Source: Actinomycetota bacterium
GTDB taxonomy: Bacteria > Actinomycetota > Acidimicrobiia > IMCC26256 > PALSA-555
Length of the DNA: 46,447 bases
Assembly: GCA_016870245.1 (NCBI GenBank)
Contig: VGCA01000003.1
Location: 1-46,447 of the forward strand
Direction: 5' to 3'
Part shown: positions 41,862-45,527 of the stretch, piece by piece
Numbering within the stretch: the first letter of the stretch is position 1
How the letters are laid out: each line of letters opens with the position of its first letter
Position numbers and translations under genes: made by a program
Notes under the pieces: model-generated
Database searches by the model: none
Told to the model about the DNA's origin: nothing
What the model saw: the letters and a program-made list of their open reading frames with translations, nothing else

Positions 41862-42218
41862 ATGTCCTACGAGGAGGTCCTCGACAACGTCGCCAAGATC
41901 GTGGAAGCGACGGGGGCGGCCATCCTCGTGCTCGGCGGGGCGACCATGCTCGCGATCTACCTCCGGCGGCTGCTCCAGCGAACGCCCGCCGCCTACACCG
42001 AGCTGCGGCGCAACCTCGGCCGCGTGATCCTCCTCGGCCTCGAGGTGCTGATCATCGGCGACATCATCCGCACGATCGCGGTGGACCCGACGCTGGAGAA
42101 CGTGGCGGTGCTCGGGGCGATCGTGGTCATCCGGATCCTGCTGAGCTTCTCGCTCGAGGTGGAGATCGACGGCGCCTGGCCCTGGAACCGCTGGCGGACC
42201 GACACCACCGGCGAGTGA
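41862..42218 (+). CDS. DUF1622-family membrane protein
   Basis: [18 protein letters not shown] and [14 protein letters not shown] patterns. Confidence 0.88.
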
Positions 42219-42244
42219 GTCGATCCGATACCATCGCCACCCTC

Positions 42245-42318
42245 GCGGGTGTAGTTCAGAGGCAGAACATCAGCTTCCCAAGCTGAGAACGCGGGTTCGA
42301 TTCCCGTCACCCGCTCCA
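42245..42318 (+). tRNA. tRNA-Gly(CCC)
   Basis: GCGGGTG acceptor stem, anticodon loop TTCCCAA, encoded CCA. Confidence 0.95.
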
Positions 42319-42439
42319 CGCATCGGGCCTGATCCGGGCCACTTCGCGCACCCCGTCAGGGGAGCGGTCGCACCGGCTGGCTCGAGGGGTCAGTGGGGCC
42401 ATACCACCGGCCTTTATGCTGATCCCAGAGGAGAGCCCG

Positions 42440-42697
42440 ATGCCCGACGACGACCTCAAGACCATGGTCCGCGAGTTCCGAGCGAGCGTCGCCGCGGACC
42501 TCGAAGCACAGCACCGGCGCATCGACGACCTCAGCGACGAGATCCGCCGTCGCATCGGAACCGCCGAGACCGCGATCGTCAACGAGATCCGCGACCTCGG
42601 CGGTCGCATAGACCGTCGGCTCGAGCGCGTCGAGATCCGCATCGGCGAGATCGACCTACGCGTCGACTCGATCGAACAGCACCTCGACCCGAGCTGA
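42440..42697 (+). CDS. small coiled-coil hypothetical protein
   Basis: GAGGAG RBS; heptads RIDRRLE/RVEIRIG/EIDLRVD/SIEQHL. Confidence 0.7.
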   Translation: MPDDDLKTMVREFRASVAADLEAQHRRIDDLSDEIRRRIGTAETAIVNEIRDLGGRIDRRLERVEIRIGEIDLRVDSIEQHLDPS

Positions 42698-42760
42698 CCC
42701 CGCTCAGGACGGTGGGGGCAGGCGGACGAGCAGGTGGCCCGGTAGGGGACGCGCTTGCCG

Positions 42761-42937
42761 ATGGGTGAGATCCTCCTCCCCCGCACCGACGGCGGCGTCT
42801 ACGCGCAGGCGCTGATCGTCTTCCCCGTCCTCGTCGTCGCGCTGGTGCTCGTGCGCCACGACCGCGACTGGCGGATCTTCGTGCTCGGCATCCTGACCAT
42901 GACGCTGGCCCTCTTCGGTGCCCGCGCGATGCACTGA
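42761..42937 (+). CDS. small two-helix membrane protein
   Basis: Two hydrophobic segments around RHDRDWR; GC3-biased codons. Confidence 0.65.
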   Translation: MGEILLPRTDGGVYAQALIVFPVLVVALVLVRHDRDWRIFVLGILTMTLALFGARAMH

Positions 42938-43113
42938 GCCGCCCGGCCGATCACCTCGGAGGACGGATTCACCGCGGCTCGGGTCGGACGGGTCGCGTGA
43001 CCCGTGGTGACCTCGGGCCCCGTCGACCCAGGTCGATCGCCTCTGGCGGTTCGGGCCTCCCACACGCACCTTGGTGGGGGTTGTGCTACGGCCTCGAAGC
43101 GGGGTTGCTGACG

Positions 43114-44616
43114 ATGCGTCGACGTTCGGTCATCATCCTGTGCGGAGTCTTGGCGTTCGTTGCCGCCGTTTCGGTGGAGACGACGGCGGCGGCACCGGCA
43201 GAAGAGGTGCCCGCCATCGTGCTGGAGCTCGACACCGCAGCCGGGGACTCTCCGCTGCGCCGGAGCACGCTGTTCCCCCCCATCGCGCTCGATCCCGATG
43301 CGCCGGGCGATCGTTGGCCAGCGGCGGCTGAGCTGACGATCTCGCGCGACTGCTGGGACGGCCCCTGCGAGGAGAACCGGCCCTACACGGTGACCGAGTC
43401 CGTGGAGTTCGAGGGCTTCTACGACCGCAAGGCCAGGACGCTCACCGGAACGGTGGTGCACAGCCAGCAGTCGGACCAACCCGAGGTGCGCCTCGGTGCC
43501 GGGGGCGTCGAACAGCTCGAATCCCAGACGATCGTCCGGACCACCGGGGAGCTCAACGCGACGTGGTCCGAGGCGGAGCGGCGGTTCTCCGGGACGATGG
43601 CGGGCACGGAGACGACGACGAGCACCTACTGGGACTACGAACCCGGACCGGGCTTCCGGGGCCGCCACCAGGAGTCCCGCCCGACCAAGACCCGAGACGT
43701 GACGTGGTCCGTGCGATCGGCGCCGCTGGACGATCCGCTCGAGGTGACGGTCCCGGCCGGGGGCGAGGGGGGCACGGGCACAGCCGCCGGCGGAACCGAC
43801 GAGACCGGGGCACCCGCCGACGAAGGCGACGATGCCTTCCCGTACCTGGTGGTGATCGCCGCGCTCCTCGTCGCCCTCGGCATCGCCGCGGCGGCCGTGG
43901 TGATGGCGGCCATCCGCCGGTCTCGCCGCGCCAAGCGAGAGCGCCCAGAACGGCGAGGCGGGCCGACGCTCGACCTCACCTTCCCGGCCGGCGCGAGCCC
44001 GAAGGTGTTCACGGAGGGCTGGGTCTTCGGGGCTCGGTGCATCGCGAACGCCGGAACACCCGAGCAGGTCGACCTCTCGGACGAGGTCGAGTGGTCGGGC
44101 TCCGGGACCTTCACTCCTCCGGTCGGACGGCGCAGCCGCCCCACGTTCGGCGGCCCCGGCGCCAACACCATCAACTTGACCGCGAGCTACGAAGGCCAGC
44201 CGGTGACGCGCTCCTTCACGGTGCAGGCCGTCTCGCCCGCCGGGTACGCCCACGTCGGCAGCCGGGCCCGGTGCCCCGCCGACGCGCACGGTGGGCCGTG
44301 CTGCCCCCATGACGTCAAGGGGCCGGTCGCGGAGGGCAGCCCGACGGTGCTGGTCGACGGCCGCCCGGCAGCCCGGGTCGGCGACGGCGGCTTCCACGAC
44401 ACCGACCCACTCTGGGTGGAGCGCAAGTTCGATGAGCTCCATAGCAAGATGCATGACGCCATGGACGGGGGCGACCCGGTGTTCTTGCGGTGCTGCGGTT
44501 CGAACACGTTCACGGTCGCCGCGGGTGATCCCGAGGTGCTCATCGACGGACGGCCGGCAGCCCGCATCGGCGACGGGACGAAGCACTGCGGAGGGATCGG
44601 CACCCTCGTGGGATGA
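43114..44616 (+). CDS. single-pass membrane protein with C-terminal PAAR domain
   Basis: Signal-peptide-like N-terminus, TM helix at 43843-43914, then GSPTVLVDGRPAARVGD and VLIDGRPAARIGD repeats with Cys/His residues. Confidence 0.85.
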   Translation: MRRRSVIILCGVLAFVAAVSVETTAAAPAEEVPAIVLELDTAAGDSPLRRSTLFPPIALDPDAPGDRWPAAAELTISRDCWDGPCEENRPYTVTESVEFEGFYDRKARTLTGTVVHSQQSDQPEVRLGAGGVEQLESQTIVRTTGELNATWSEAERRFSGTMAGTETTTSTYWDYEPGPGFRGRHQESRPTKTRDVTWSVRSAPLDDPLEVTVPAGGEGGTGTAAGGTDETGAPADEGDDAFPYLVVIAALLVALGIAAAAVVMAAIRRSRRAKRERPERRGGPTLDLTFPAGASPKVFTEGWVFGARCIANAGTPEQVDLSDEVEWSGSGTFTPPVGRRSRPTFGGPGANTINLTASYEGQPVTRSFTVQAVSPAGYAHVGSRARCPADAHGGPCCPHDVKGPVAEGSPTVLVDGRPAARVGDGGFHDTDPLWVERKFDELHSKMHDAMDGGDPVFLRCCGSNTFTVAAGDPEVLIDGRPAARIGDGTKHCGGIGTLVG

Positions 44617-44732
44617 GACGCCTCAACGCGGCATCACGCCGCGCGGCGGGTCGGCAGCCTCCGAGCGCGACCCACTCGACGACACCGGGGCGGGGCGTCG
44701 CCGGCGACGGACCGTCCCGATAGTCTCCGCTC

Positions 44733-45527
44733 GTGGACCTGAGCCTGGGGGGGCGGGTCGCGGTCGTGACCGGCGGGAGCCAGGGGATCGGCCGCGAGAT
44801 CGCGCGGTTGTTGGCGGCCGAAGGCGCGGATCTCGTGATCGTCGCCCGGCGCACCGAGGTGCTCGAGCGCACCGCGGCCGAGCTGCGGGCCCTGGGCCGC
44901 CGGGCGATCGCGGTCACCGGCGACGTCGCGACCCCCGACGGTCCCGCGGCGATCGCCGATGCAGCACTCGCGGAGTTCGGGCACGTCGACATCGTGATCA
45001 ACAACGCGGGGAAGGGCCACAACAAGCCACTCGAGGCGCTGACCGACGACGATTGGCAGGCGAGCCTCGACCTCAACCTGATGAGCGCGGTGCGGATGTG
45101 CCGTGCGCTGGTGCCGCAGATGCGCGCACGCGGGTGGGGGCGCATCGTCAACATCTCCACCCGCGTCGCGCTCGAGCCCGACCCGTACTTCGCCGCGTAC
45201 GGCGCGTCCAAGGCCGGGCTGGTGAACTTCTCGAAGAACCTCGCCAACGCCTATTCGCGCGACGGGGTGCTCACCAACTGCATCGTGCCCGGGCTCATCC
45301 GCAGCGAGGCGATCGATCAGGCGGCCGAGAAGTCGGCGGCCGAGACCGGCCTCAGCGTGGAGGAGGTGATGGCCCGCACCCTGAAGAAGCGGCCTATCCC
45401 CGCCGGGCGCCTCGGCGAGCCGGCCGACGTGGCCGGGCTGGTCGCATTGCTCTGCTCCGACCGTGGCTCCTGGATCACGGGCGCGTGCTTCACCATCGAC
45501 GGCGGCATCGTCCGCTCCGACCGGTAA
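44733..45527 (+). CDS. SDR family oxidoreductase
   Basis: TGGSQGIG, NNAG and YGASK motifs. Confidence 0.93.
   Translation: MDLSLGGRVAVVTGGSQGIGREIARLLAAEGADLVIVARRTEVLERTAAELRALGRRAIAVTGDVATPDGPAAIADAALAEFGHVDIVINNAGKGHNKPLEALTDDDWQASLDLNLMSAVRMCRALVPQMRARGWGRIVNISTRVALEPDPYFAAYGASKAGLVNFSKNLANAYSRDGVLTNCIVPGLIRSEAIDQAAEKSAAETGLSVEEVMARTLKKRPIPAGRLGEPADVAGLVALLCSDRGSWITGACFTIDGGIVRSDR

What the first reader, a model, noticed from the sequence alone, without database searches (positions are those of the whole stretch)
43114..44616. Membrane-tethered, cytoplasm-facing PAAR protein with an extracellular domain and no injection system nearby
Seen: a 500-aa ORF ordered signal peptide (MRRRSVIILCG...AAA), about 215-aa domain ending in a Gly/acidic linker, one TM helix, a strongly basic stop-transfer (RRSRRAKRERPERR), a beta-rich domain of about 90 aa, then a C-terminal PAAR domain. 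Established: PAAR domains cap VgrG/gp5 spikes of T6SS, eCIS and phage tails and are usually free or N-terminal to toxins; Streptomyces has cytoplasmic contractile injection systems recruited to the membrane. Inference: the positive-inside rule puts PAAR on the inner membrane face, giving a receptor-like layout. It could dock or trigger a cytoplasmic spike, act as a spike decoy, or be a PAAR repurposed as a metal-binding signalling module.
Basis: partly seen in the sequence, partly recalled or inferred. Interest (0 to 1): 0.8.

Follow-up and report, generated by a model that had tools for sequence, protein, structure and literature searches.

The report
Membrane-anchored PAAR protein without injection machinery
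This gene encodes a single-pass membrane protein ending in a spike-tip (PAAR) domain, in a bacterium that has no spike or injection machine, and it belongs to a widespread, undescribed family of such membrane-tethered PAAR modules whose job is unknown.

Summary
ORF 43114-44616(+) encodes 500 aa: Sec-type signal peptide, about 190-aa beta-rich ectodomain, Gly/acidic linker, one strong TM helix, Arg-rich stop-transfer, a PKD/Ig-like domain, and a true PAAR cone (Pfam 52 bits; model vs VCA0105 Z 13.4) carrying a unique 29-aa insertion.

The last 216 aa form a conserved PKD-PAAR module (43-56% identity by BLAST). It has 165 relatives among 185,579 species genomes, across many phyla. Of 82 proteins, 54 put the module behind a signal peptide or lipobox, so it is exported. 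Fourteen share the query's SP-ectodomain-TM-module order. Eleven of these form a supported clade with the query and have unrelated ectodomains.

Positive-inside bias (5 K/R before the TM, 52 after, 14 proteins) puts the query's module in the cytoplasm.

The family does not depend on contractile injection systems. The host genome (95% complete) lacks VgrG, gp5, sheath, tube and gp25. So do 40 of 50 carrier genomes.

The gene is absent from 60 of 60 relatives and sits at a synteny break beside tRNA-Gly.

Best reading: a horizontally acquired, receptor-like membrane protein with a repurposed, probably metal-stabilised PAAR head. Its function is unknown, and docking of a cytoplasmic spike is unsupported.

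The parts
43114..44616 (+). Whole ORF, 500 aa plus stop. An alternative in-frame GTG start at 42997 would add 39 aa.
   Evidence: P0002 is the 539-aa version. GC3 is 0.87, against 0.92-0.97 in flanking genes.
43114..43191 (+). Sec-type signal peptide (residues 1-26): MRRR n-region, hydrophobic core 6-24, AAA-P c-region.
   Evidence: Hydropathy scan, plus direct reading of the sequence. The cleavage site is inferred, not computed.
43192..43758 (+). Lineage-specific all-beta ectodomain (residues 27-215) with one conserved Cys pair.
   Evidence: Only one real relative among 1.84 billion representatives: P0085, 44% identity. The AF2 model is weak overall (pLDDT 62, core blocks 80-87, long antiparallel strands). 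No PDB match.
43759..43845 (+). Gly/Thr/acidic linker (residues 216-244), with no K/R in the last 15 residues.
43846..43911 (+). Transmembrane helix (residues 245-266). The FPYL motif just before it is shared with P0085.
   Evidence: Kyte-Doolittle mean 3.02 over 245-263. Alignment.
43915..43956 (+). Arg-rich stop-transfer RRSRRAKRERPERR (residues 268-281).
   Evidence: Seven K/R in the 15 residues after the TM, against 0 before.
43966..44238 (+). PKD/Ig-like beta-sandwich, the first half of the conserved module (residues 285-375).
   Evidence: AF2 pLDDT about 98. ColG PKD domain 4aqo: Z 8.2, rmsd 2.3 over 79 aa. LigB Ig-like domain by Foldseek.
44239..44613 (+). PAAR cone, the second half of the module (residues 376-500). 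It has two PAAR repeats, each with a DxxxH (His428, His491).
   Evidence: Pfam PF05488, 52.3 bits. 4jiv_D: Z 13.4, rmsd 1.9 over 86 aa, 37% identity; T4 gp5.4: Z 11.1. SalCis10 E 8e-14 by profile. The internal DNA repeat 44324-44387 / 44513-44576 is the two repeats. Ten of 11 family-conserved Cys/His positions are kept.
44404..44490 (+). 29-aa insertion unique to this protein (residues 431-459). It is predicted helical and contains HSKMH.
   Evidence: Found in 1 of 82 aligned rows. Model helix 148-162 with pLDDT 56-69.

Best explanation
The gene encodes a horizontally acquired, single-pass (type I) membrane protein.

Layout. A cleaved signal peptide puts a lineage-specific beta-rich domain outside the cell. 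One TM helix with an Arg-rich stop-transfer leaves the C-terminal 216 residues in the cytoplasm.

The module. Those 216 residues are a member of a widespread, so far undescribed PKD-PAAR module family. The module is a rigid two-domain unit: a PKD/Ig-like sandwich packed on a complete PAAR cone. The cone has the canonical DxxxH His/Cys set that binds Zn in solved PAARs. In most relatives the module is tethered to the cytoplasmic membrane, but by very different anchors: lipoprotein signal, signal peptide with other domains, single TM, or polytopic domain.

What it is not. The family does not depend on contractile injection systems, so here the cone is not a spike tip.

Inferred, not shown. The module acts as a metal-stabilised protein-binding head. 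In the query's clade it is the conserved inner-face output of receptor-like proteins whose outer sensor domains vary. The partner and the signal are unknown.
For: Domain order and PAAR identity.

Module family:
- 81 proteins (P0003-P0083) share only query residues about 285-500, at 40-56% identity.
- 165 relatives among 185,579 species genomes, from many phyla.
- 84 more in metagenome contigs.

Inward topology:
- The query has 0 K/R before the TM and 7 after. Summed over the 14 SP+TM proteins the counts are 5 and 52.
- The same ectodomain-TM unit occurs with a different tail in P0085.
- Clade of 12 rows (11 SP+TM, 1 polytopic) including the query, support 96/91. Its ectodomains fall in separate similarity clusters or stand alone.

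Independence from injection systems:
- The own genome has no GPD, base_V, sheath, gp25, gp19 or DcrB and only one PAAR.
- In 50 carrier genomes, hits over cut-off were GPD 6, sheath 4, VipB 4 and gp25 10. The union is 10 of 50.
- In those 10 genomes the module gene lies on another contig than the injection genes. In at least five of them (G020, G026, G029, G030, G050) separate small PAARs (about 90-133-aa frames) were also hit, four of them on the contig that holds the injection genes.

Metal set:
- AARxxDxxxH is present in 69 of 82 rows.
- H392, C460, H491 and C492 are kept in 78-79 of 82 rows.
- The query keeps 10 of 11 conserved positions.
- DxxxH is needed for Zn binding in orphan PAARs (PMC7773334, passages read).
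- Tat motif plus lipobox in Dehalococcoidia forms suggests the module folds before export.

Acquisition:
- Absent from 60 of 60 relatives, 7 of them the same genus.
- Synteny with same-genus genomes ends at tRNA-Gly 42245-42318.
- GC3 is lower than in the flanks.

Not a chimera: contigs of runs X6 and X8 bridge the TM-module join with no differences.
Against: - Topology rests on my own hydropathy and charge counts, with no dedicated predictor and no experiment.
- PKD-like domains and every Pfam domain fused to the module elsewhere are typical extracellular types: CarboxypepD_reg, SdrD_B, SpaA, Cu_amine_oxidN1, Laminin_G_3, F5/8-C, PKD, Big_1 and TIL. The only exceptions are N-terminal zinc ribbons in one polytopic protein.
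- 54 of 82 relatives are predicted to export the module. A cytoplasmic PKD-PAAR is therefore the minority state.
- No partner, ligand or conserved neighbour was found for the inward-facing forms.
- The protein-binding role is inference only.
- The genome is a 385-contig assembly at 95% completeness, so a missing 20-30-kb cluster cannot be excluded.
- The completeness of the 50 carrier genomes was not given.
- Those 50 were my choice out of 80 loci. I dropped short contigs, second loci of one genome and many Chitinophagaceae-like loci.
Confidence: 0.5

Rival explanations
1. The module is really on the outside, as in most of the family. The protein would then be a surface-displayed PKD-PAAR adhesin or binding protein, and the charge-based topology is wrong. 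This could happen if the N-terminal segment is not a functional signal, or if the central helix is not a stop-transfer.
For: 54 of 82 relatives export the module. Lipobox and Tat signals occur in 11 or more short forms. The PKD fold and the fused domains are of extracellular type. P0085's tail after the homologous TM holds a DTDGDGIGD motif, which from recall resembles extracellular Ca-binding loops.
Against: The N-terminus has MRRR followed by a hydrophobic core, so the next domain should be outside and the residues after the second helix inside. The K/R count is 0 before and 7 after in the query, and 5 against 52 over 14 proteins. The TM is strongly hydrophobic (3.02). The inward forms cluster as a clade.
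Confidence: 0.15
2. One reading: the inward-facing PAAR docks, caps, triggers or decoys a contractile or other trimeric beta-helical spike. The spike could be a host system lying in the unassembled 5% of the genome, or one brought in by a phage or an attacker.
For: The cone is a complete canonical PAAR. The closest sequences with solved structures are spike tips: SalCis10 of a Salmonella eCIS (E 8e-14), then c1882 and VCA0105. One related carrier, the Ilumatobacteraceae MAG G006, has a gp25 hit and a weak sheath hit on another contig. Cytoplasmic injection systems recruited to the membrane exist in Streptomyces (PMC12237407, passages read).
Against: Five hallmark families were not found in this genome, nor in 40 of 50 carriers. 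Where such systems exist, several have their own small PAAR beside them, and the module gene is on another contig. The known Streptomyces adaptor CisA has the opposite topology, has no PAAR, and is predicted to bind baseplate Cis11 rather than the spike. From established knowledge, incoming spikes already carry a tip, which leaves no free face for a decoy.
Confidence: 0.08
3. The module is mainly a metal-binding or metal-sensing unit (Zn or another thiophilic metal) held at the membrane. The cone serves only as a scaffold for its Cys/His cluster.
For: There are 11 conserved Cys/His positions, more than the four ligands of an orphan PAAR (PMC7773334). A CxxC is present in most members. Tat export occurs in some lineages. 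The query's insertion adds an HSKMH.
Against: Several members have lost some of the extra Cys, for example P0023, P0024 and P0018. No metal transporter or regulator recurs beside the genes. The PKD half is as strongly conserved as the Cys/His half, which a simple metal site does not explain.
Confidence: 0.12
4. A recently acquired passenger gene with no role in this host, possibly on its way to decay. The unique 29-aa insertion would be a sign of relaxed constraint.
For: It is absent from 60 of 60 relatives. It lies at a tRNA-flanked synteny break. The insertion is unique and one conserved Cys is displaced. Its ectodomain has only one relative known anywhere.
Against: The frame is open for 500 codons. 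Ten of 11 conserved Cys/His positions and both DxxxH motifs are intact. GC3 of 0.87 is close to the host's. Identical sequence is found in contigs of several runs.
Confidence: 0.1

Closest known systems
Orphan PAAR spike tips of T6SS and contractile phages (VCA0105 4jiv, c1882 4jiw, T4 gp5.4 4ku0)
   Same: Same cone fold: Z 13.4, 12.6 and 11.1 over 86-88 residues, with 37%, 31% and 14% identity. Two PAAR repeats, each with a DxxxH.
   Different: Those are about 95-aa soluble cytoplasmic proteins that sit on VgrG or gp5. This one is the C-terminus of a 500-aa membrane protein, fused to a PKD-like domain, and carries a 29-aa insertion. Its genome has no VgrG, gp5, sheath, tube or gp25. The NCBIfam T6SS PAAR model scores 37 bits against a cut-off of 124.
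eCIS spike-tip protein Cis10/Afp10 type (SalCis10, 9rce; Salmonella enterica subsp. salamae eCIS, PMC13266070, search listing only)
   Same: It is the best sequence match among solved structures: E 8.1e-14 over profile positions 172-259.
   Different: SalCis10 is a 99-aa stand-alone tip inside an eCIS gene cluster. There is no such cluster here.
prePAAR / TMD-containing T6SS effectors (Tse6, Rhs1; PMC7773334)
   Same: Hydrophobic helices precede a PAAR domain, and an AARxxDxxxH motif is present.
   Different: In those effectors the motif is split off to the N-terminus ahead of the TMDs, a toxin follows the PAAR, an Eag (DcrB) chaperone is needed, and the TMDs are meant for the target cell's membrane. 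Here the motif lies inside a contiguous PAAR, nothing follows the PAAR, no DcrB was found, and a Sec signal plus a 190-aa ectodomain precede the single TM.
CisA, membrane adaptor of the cytoplasmic Streptomyces CIS (PMC12237407)
   Same: A single-pass membrane protein linked to a phage-tail-like system in an actinobacterium.
   Different: CisA is N-in/C-out by PhoA-LacZ, has a disordered cytoplasmic part and a periplasmic substrate-binding-like domain, has no PAAR, and is predicted to bind baseplate Cis11. The query has the opposite orientation and no CIS in its genome.
Bacterial PKD/Ig-like domains of secreted and surface proteins (ColG PKD 4aqo, LigB Ig-like 2mog)
   Same: Model residues 1-90 of the module match them at Z 8.2, rmsd 2.3 over 79 aa. 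Foldseek probability is 1.00 for LigB.
   Different: Those sit outside the cell as spacers or binding domains. Here the domain is fixed to a PAAR cone and is predicted to lie in the cytoplasm. Pfam's PKD model does not detect it in the query.

Membership tests
PAAR_motif superfamily (Pfam PF05488) | Score above the Pfam gathering threshold | tested here: met
   52.3 bits against 27, E 6.8e-14, two stretches. All 82 aligned family members also pass.
PAAR_motif superfamily (Pfam PF05488) | Conical three-lobed beta fold | tested here: met
   AF2 model pLDDT 91.6. Z 13.4, rmsd 1.9 A over 86 residues to 4jiv_D. Also matches T4 gp5.4, a phage P1 baseplate chain and phiKZ gp163.1.
PAAR_motif superfamily (Pfam PF05488) | His/Cys set with DxxxH motifs that coordinates Zn near the apex | tested here: inconclusive
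   Both DxxxH motifs (His428, His491) and 10 of 11 family-conserved Cys/His positions are present. Their role in Zn binding is taken from PMC7773334. No coordinates or metal analysis were available here.
Functional spike tip of a T6SS, eCIS or contractile phage tail | A VgrG/gp5-type spike encoded in the same genome | tested here: not met
   No Phage_GPD or Phage_base_V hit at E<=0.1 in the 95%-complete genome. Only 6 of 50 carrier genomes have GPD over cut-off.
Functional spike tip of a T6SS, eCIS or contractile phage tail | Sheath, tube and gp25 baseplate genes in the genome or beside the gene | tested here: not met
   No Phage_sheath_1, Phage_T4_gp19 or GPW_gp25 in the genome, and none in the window. 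The union of hallmark hits is 10 of 50 carrier genomes, never on the module's contig.
Functional spike tip of a T6SS, eCIS or contractile phage tail | NCBIfam equivalog model for T6SS PAAR (NF033420) | tested here: not met
   37.2 bits against a cut-off of 124.
prePAAR TMD effectors | AARxxDxxxH split off at the N-terminus before the TMDs | tested here: not met
   In the query the motif lies only inside the contiguous C-terminal PAAR (AARVGDGGFH). The N-terminus is a signal peptide.
prePAAR TMD effectors | C-terminal toxin after the PAAR, and an Eag (DcrB) chaperone gene | tested here: not met
   The protein ends with the PAAR. No DcrB PF08786 in the genome. No toxin family was found among 82 near-length and 13 longer relatives.
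CisA-like CIS membrane adaptor | N-in/C-out bitopic protein encoded with a cytoplasmic CIS | tested here: not met
   The predicted orientation is the opposite and the genome has no CIS genes. CisA features are from PMC12237407. Sequence similarity to CisA was not tested.
PKD-PAAR module family (defined here) | Contiguous about 216-aa unit: the [LIV]x[LIV]x[YFH]PxGxSP...GWxFGA motifs of the PKD-like half, followed by two PAAR repeats and HCGG | tested here: met
   Query residues 285-500 align end to end with 81 proteins, at 46-68% identity in the alignment and 40-56% by BLAST.

The most novel reading that the evidence does not exclude
PKD-PAAR modules are a second, injection-independent career of the PAAR cone: a membrane-tethered, metal-stabilised binding head used on either face of the cytoplasmic membrane.

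The query's clade would be a new family of single-pass receptors. A swappable outer sensor domain is coupled to a conserved inner PKD-PAAR output that recruits or releases a cytoplasmic partner.

The exported lipoprotein forms would work with their conserved N-anchored neighbour on the outer face.
Probability: 0.3. Interest if true: 0.75.

Novelty: new variant of a known kind. Interest (0 to 1): 0.6.

Why it matters
PAAR domains are treated in the literature as parts of contractile injection machines.
- A 2012 survey found PAAR with an associated TM helix 'strictly' in T6SS contexts (PMC3482391, passages read).
- A 2021 census tied PAAR copy number to vgrG (r = 0.81) and framed all types as T6SS or eCIS clips (PMC8651086, abstract and sections 5 and 8 read).

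Here a well-conserved PAAR family is found mostly in genomes without any such machine, including Dehalococcoidia and one archaeal bin. It is exported by Sec or Tat as lipoproteins, or, as in this window, held on the inner face of the membrane behind variable ectodomains.

If confirmed, this would show that the cone fold has a function apart from capping spikes. It would also warn against inferring an injection system from a PAAR hit. And it would give a tractable 216-aa module, with a confident model, for binding and metal studies.

Function remains unknown, and no carrier seen here is a cultured organism.

Tried and rejected
- The search of earlier findings was not open.
- Complex prediction was meant to test whether the exported lipoprotein module binds its conserved upstream neighbour (alignments A3 and A4). 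The queue was full, and the tool was declared unavailable. Nothing was folded, so that question stays open.
- Ectodomain: the AF2 model had only pLDDT 62. Foldseek against the PDB gave nothing at E<=0.001. The ESM Atlas gave only sub-threshold leads: feature score 0.78, and structure rows resembling beta-meanders or small barrels. No fold is named.
- PADLOC: no family. PHROGs: only phrog_281, 'PAAR motif of membrane proteins', 3.4e-9.
- A direct repeat of the tRNA end, as an att-like site, was not found in 42200-44800. Promoter and terminator scans found nothing.
- Conserved neighbours of the inward-facing forms: none is shared between the window, L038, L093 and L007 apart from the module itself.
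- The cluster-4 partner was not found in the window's genome with one query protein.
- No RNA holder was listed among the sequencing runs.
- Assembly chimera: rejected.
- An internal Tat signal of the Sec/Tat dual-insertion type (bioRxiv 10.1101/111781, listing only) was considered. It was rejected for the query because the Arg cluster follows the helix instead of preceding it.
- Literature searches found no description of exported or inward-facing PKD-PAAR proteins. The searches were: 'PAAR domain / signal peptide / lipoprotein'; 'orphan PAAR / PAAR-like / lack T6SS / twin-arginine'; 'PAAR / membrane-anchored / cytoplasmic contractile injection / CisA'; and 'PAAR / PKD domain / Sec-dependent / exported / Chloroflexi'. 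Supplementary tables of PMC8651086 and PMC7773334 could not be seen and might list such architectures.
Full report
**1. What is there**

Window 43114-44616 (+) is an open frame of 500 codons. An in-frame GTG at 42997 would add 39 residues, and that 539-aa form is the one in the protein collection.

A Kyte-Doolittle scan of my own finds two hydrophobic segments:
- Residues 6-24, preceded by MRRR and followed by AAAP. This is a classical Sec signal.
- Residues 245-263 (mean 3.02), preceded by an acidic, K/R-free stretch and followed by RRSRRAKRERPERR.

Pfam finds PAAR_motif at 52.3 bits against a cut-off of 27. NCBI's T6SS PAAR equivalog model reaches only 37 of the 124 bits required.

**2. The C-terminal 216 residues are one conserved module**

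A search of the 5.8-billion-protein collection returned 83 proteins. One is the query itself and one is a weak partial match. The other 81 share only query residues about 285-500, at 40-56% BLAST identity. Their remaining parts are unrelated to the query.

With this alignment AlphaFold2 gives a confident model (pLDDT 91.6, pTM 0.82).
- Residues 92-216 of the model superpose on the *Vibrio* PAAR VCA0105 (Z 13.4, rmsd 1.9 A, 86 residues, 37% identity). They also match c1882, T4 gp5.4, a phage P1 baseplate chain and phiKZ gp163.1.
- Residues 1-90 match PKD/Ig-like domains (ColG PKD Z 8.2).
- By sequence profile the nearest solved protein is SalCis10, the tip of a *Salmonella* eCIS (E 8e-14).

The family keeps 11 Cys/His positions, and the query keeps 10 of them, with one Cys shifted by two residues. 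Both PAAR repeats carry DxxxH (His428, His491). AARxxDxxxH is present in 69 of 82 rows. In orphan PAARs DxxxH is needed for Zn coordination (PMC7773334, passages read). That the query binds metal is inference.

The query alone has a 29-aa, probably helical insertion (residues 431-459) in a loop of the cone.

**3. Which side of the membrane**

I classed the 82 aligned proteins with crude hydropathy rules of my own, leaving out no rows:

| Class | Proteins |
|---|---|
| N-terminal signal or anchor only, so the module is exported | 54 |
| Query's order: signal, other domain, one TM, module | 14 |
| Polytopic | 6 |
| No hydrophobic segment | 6 |
| One TM without a signal | 1 |
| Fragment | 1 |

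Export in the first class is well marked:
- Many have typical AxA-type signals directly before the module.
- Six have lipobox-like sites.
- In genome loci the short Dehalococcoidia, Actinomycetota and *Syntrophomonas* forms have lipoboxes. Five carry a twin-arginine motif (IDRRKFL) before the lipobox Cys.
- Apart from N-terminal zinc ribbons in one polytopic protein, Pfam domains fused to the module are all of extracellular type.

For the 14 proteins of the query's class, the 15 residues before the TM hold 5 K/R in total and the 15 after hold 52. By the positive-inside rule the module is cytoplasmic in these.

In a maximum-likelihood tree of the module (82 rows, careful search, bootstrap not fully settled), 11 of the 14, plus one polytopic protein, form a clade with the query (UFboot 96, SH-aLRT 91). 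Within it the ectodomains are unrelated to one another. So the TM-linker-module unit is inherited while the outer domain is swapped, which is the pattern seen in receptor families.

The query's own ectodomain has a single real relative among 1.84 billion representatives. That relative, P0085, has the same signal-ectodomain-TM-basic layout but a different tail.

The topology is a prediction. No dedicated predictor or experiment was available.

**4. No link to injection machines**

The window holds purine synthesis genes, ClpB, MMPL, DnaK-GrpE-DnaJ, dCTP deaminase, an SDR and acyl-CoA dehydrogenases.

The whole genome (3.36 Mb, 385 contigs, 95% complete, 1.5% contamination) has exactly one PAAR hit, this gene. 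It has no hit at E<=0.1 to Phage_GPD, Phage_base_V, Phage_sheath_1, GPW_gp25 or Phage_T4_gp19, nor to the Eag chaperone family DcrB.

The scan of one genome per species found 165 relatives in 185,579 species. The best 80 are all metagenome-assembled or uncultured genomes. They come from Dehalococcoidia, Chitinophagaceae, Holophagae, Armatimonadota, Actinomycetota, Bacillota, Planctomycetota, Desulfobacterota and others, plus one Methanobacteriota bin.

I searched 50 of these 80 carrier genomes. This was my own choice: I dropped short contigs, second loci of one genome and many Chitinophagaceae-like loci. Hits over cut-off were:

| Family | Genomes of 50 |
|---|---|
| Phage_GPD | 6 |
| Phage_sheath_1 | 4 |
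| VipB | 4 |
| GPW_gp25 | 10 |

Ten genomes have a hit to at least one family and 40 have none. In the ten, the module gene lies on a different contig from the injection genes. Several of them also have separate small PAARs, some beside those genes. The completeness of these genomes was not reported, so 40 of 50 is an upper bound on true absence. It is nevertheless far from the tight PAAR-vgrG coupling reported for the domain (PMC8651086, section 8 read).

**5. Genomic setting**

- The gene is absent from 60 of 60 relatives searched: 7 same genus, 29 same family, 24 same order.
- Same-genus genomes match the window at 82-89% DNA identity up to dCTP deaminase. Where contigs continue, they match up to tRNA-Gly(CCC) at 42245-42318. 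After that they differ.
- The SDR/acyl-CoA dehydrogenase block downstream lies elsewhere in them.
- The gene's GC3 (0.87) is below that of its neighbours (0.92-0.97).

Together this points to horizontal acquisition at a variable site beside a tRNA gene. No integrase or att-like repeat was seen.

DnaK is 77% identical to that of an Ilumatobacteraceae MAG. Together with the MMPL gene and about 70% G+C, this suggests an Acidimicrobiia-like actinobacterium. That is inference.

Lake-water metagenome runs hold the stretch. One possible source run has a contig spanning all of it. Contigs of two other runs (X6: 43803-44189; X8: 43868-44133) cross the TM-module join without a difference. These runs may belong to one campaign.

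**6. How it most likely works**

Shown or strongly supported:
- It is a real gene for a membrane protein with a genuine PAAR cone fused to a PKD-like domain.
- It is a member of a module family that is independent of contractile injection systems.

Predicted: the module lies on the cytoplasmic face.

Inferred: the PKD-PAAR unit is a metal-stabilised binding head, and in this clade it is the conserved inner output of receptor-like proteins with variable outer domains.

I could not find its partner. Inward-facing loci share no neighbour.

The exported short forms do have a conserved partner gene. It encodes an N-anchored protein of about 240 aa, without a Pfam family, lying 0-60 nt upstream. I found it in 22 of the 80 loci in which my pattern recognised the module gene, out of 160 loci held. 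The co-folding test of that pair could not be run.

Rivals considered:
- An outward topology after all.
- A spike dock or decoy.
- A metal sensor.
- A functionless passenger gene.

**7. Comparison and novelty**

Structurally this is a PAAR. Functionally it fails the tests for a T6SS or eCIS tip (no spike, sheath, tube or gp25). It also fails those for a prePAAR effector (motif not split, no toxin, no Eag) and for a CisA-like adaptor (opposite topology, no CIS).

The papers I read treat PAAR as a part of injection systems:
- PMC3482391 (passages)
- PMC8651086 (abstract, sections 5 and 8)
- PMC7773334 (passages)
- PMC7376260 (passages)

Four full-text searches found no account of exported or inward-facing PKD-PAAR proteins. 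Supplements were closed.

I therefore rate it a new variant of a known kind. It is of real interest to people working on injection systems and on membrane signalling. It is held back by the unknown function and the lack of any cultured carrier.

Noticed in passing
L012, L015, L026, L027, L049 (module ORFs, e.g. L015:9821-10567) and other short forms: Dehalococcoidia versions of the module are lipoproteins of about 245 aa. They have a twin-arginine motif (IDRRKFL) followed by a lipobox Cys, a short helix and an acidic linker. This suggests Tat export of a pre-folded, metal-loaded PAAR.
   Followed up: partly
e.g. L015:9059-9778, L023:9019-9804, L004:9131-9841: A conserved gene lies 0-60 nt upstream of the lipoprotein forms. 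It encodes an N-anchored protein of about 240 aa with no Pfam family. I found it in 22 of the 80 loci with a recognised module ORF (160 loci held), from Dehalococcoidia, Actinomycetota and Syntrophomonas. It was not found in the window's genome with one query.
   Followed up: partly
L146:8564-9469, L045:10567-11433, L038:11957-13081(-), L015:10534-11499 and L015:11517-12812: A class-I SAM methyltransferase lies within 3 kb of the module gene in 10 loci, and a B12-binding radical-SAM enzyme in 6. The loci span lipoprotein, single-TM and polytopic forms, including the archaeal bin. The window's gene has neither neighbour.
   Followed up: partly
L007:9311-10573; P0027, P0032, P0070: A short DDCx(5-7)DC motif precedes the last hydrophobic helix before the module. 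It occurs both in an Ilumatobacteraceae protein (signal peptide, 20-aa loop, TM, 150-aa acidic linker, module) and in polytopic forms. It looks like a small disulfide loop on the outer face.
   Followed up: no
window 42245-42318 and 42319-44721: tRNA-Gly(CCC) marks the end of synteny with same-genus genomes. The 2.4 kb after it holds a 93-aa coiled-coil ORF (42416-42697), a 58-aa two-helix membrane ORF (42761-42937) and the PAAR gene. Pieces of the two small ORFs occur elsewhere in relatives at 77-82% identity.
   Followed up: partly
P0085 (404 aa, metagenomic): This is the only relative of the query's ectodomain. It keeps the signal, Cys pair, FPYL motif, TM and basic stretch. It ends in an unrelated acidic tail with a DTDGDGIGD motif instead of the PKD-PAAR module.
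   Followed up: no
window 44404-44490 (residues 431-459): The query-specific insertion in the PAAR cone contains an HSKMH (HxxxH) and several acidic residues, which could form an extra metal site. The model's confidence there is low.
   Followed up: no
G006 (genome of L007), contig C33: The Ilumatobacteraceae carrier has a gp25 hit (E 9.6e-16) and a weak sheath hit (E 1.9e-4) about 14 kb apart on one contig, so it may hold a contractile injection cluster. Its module gene is on another contig.
   Followed up: no
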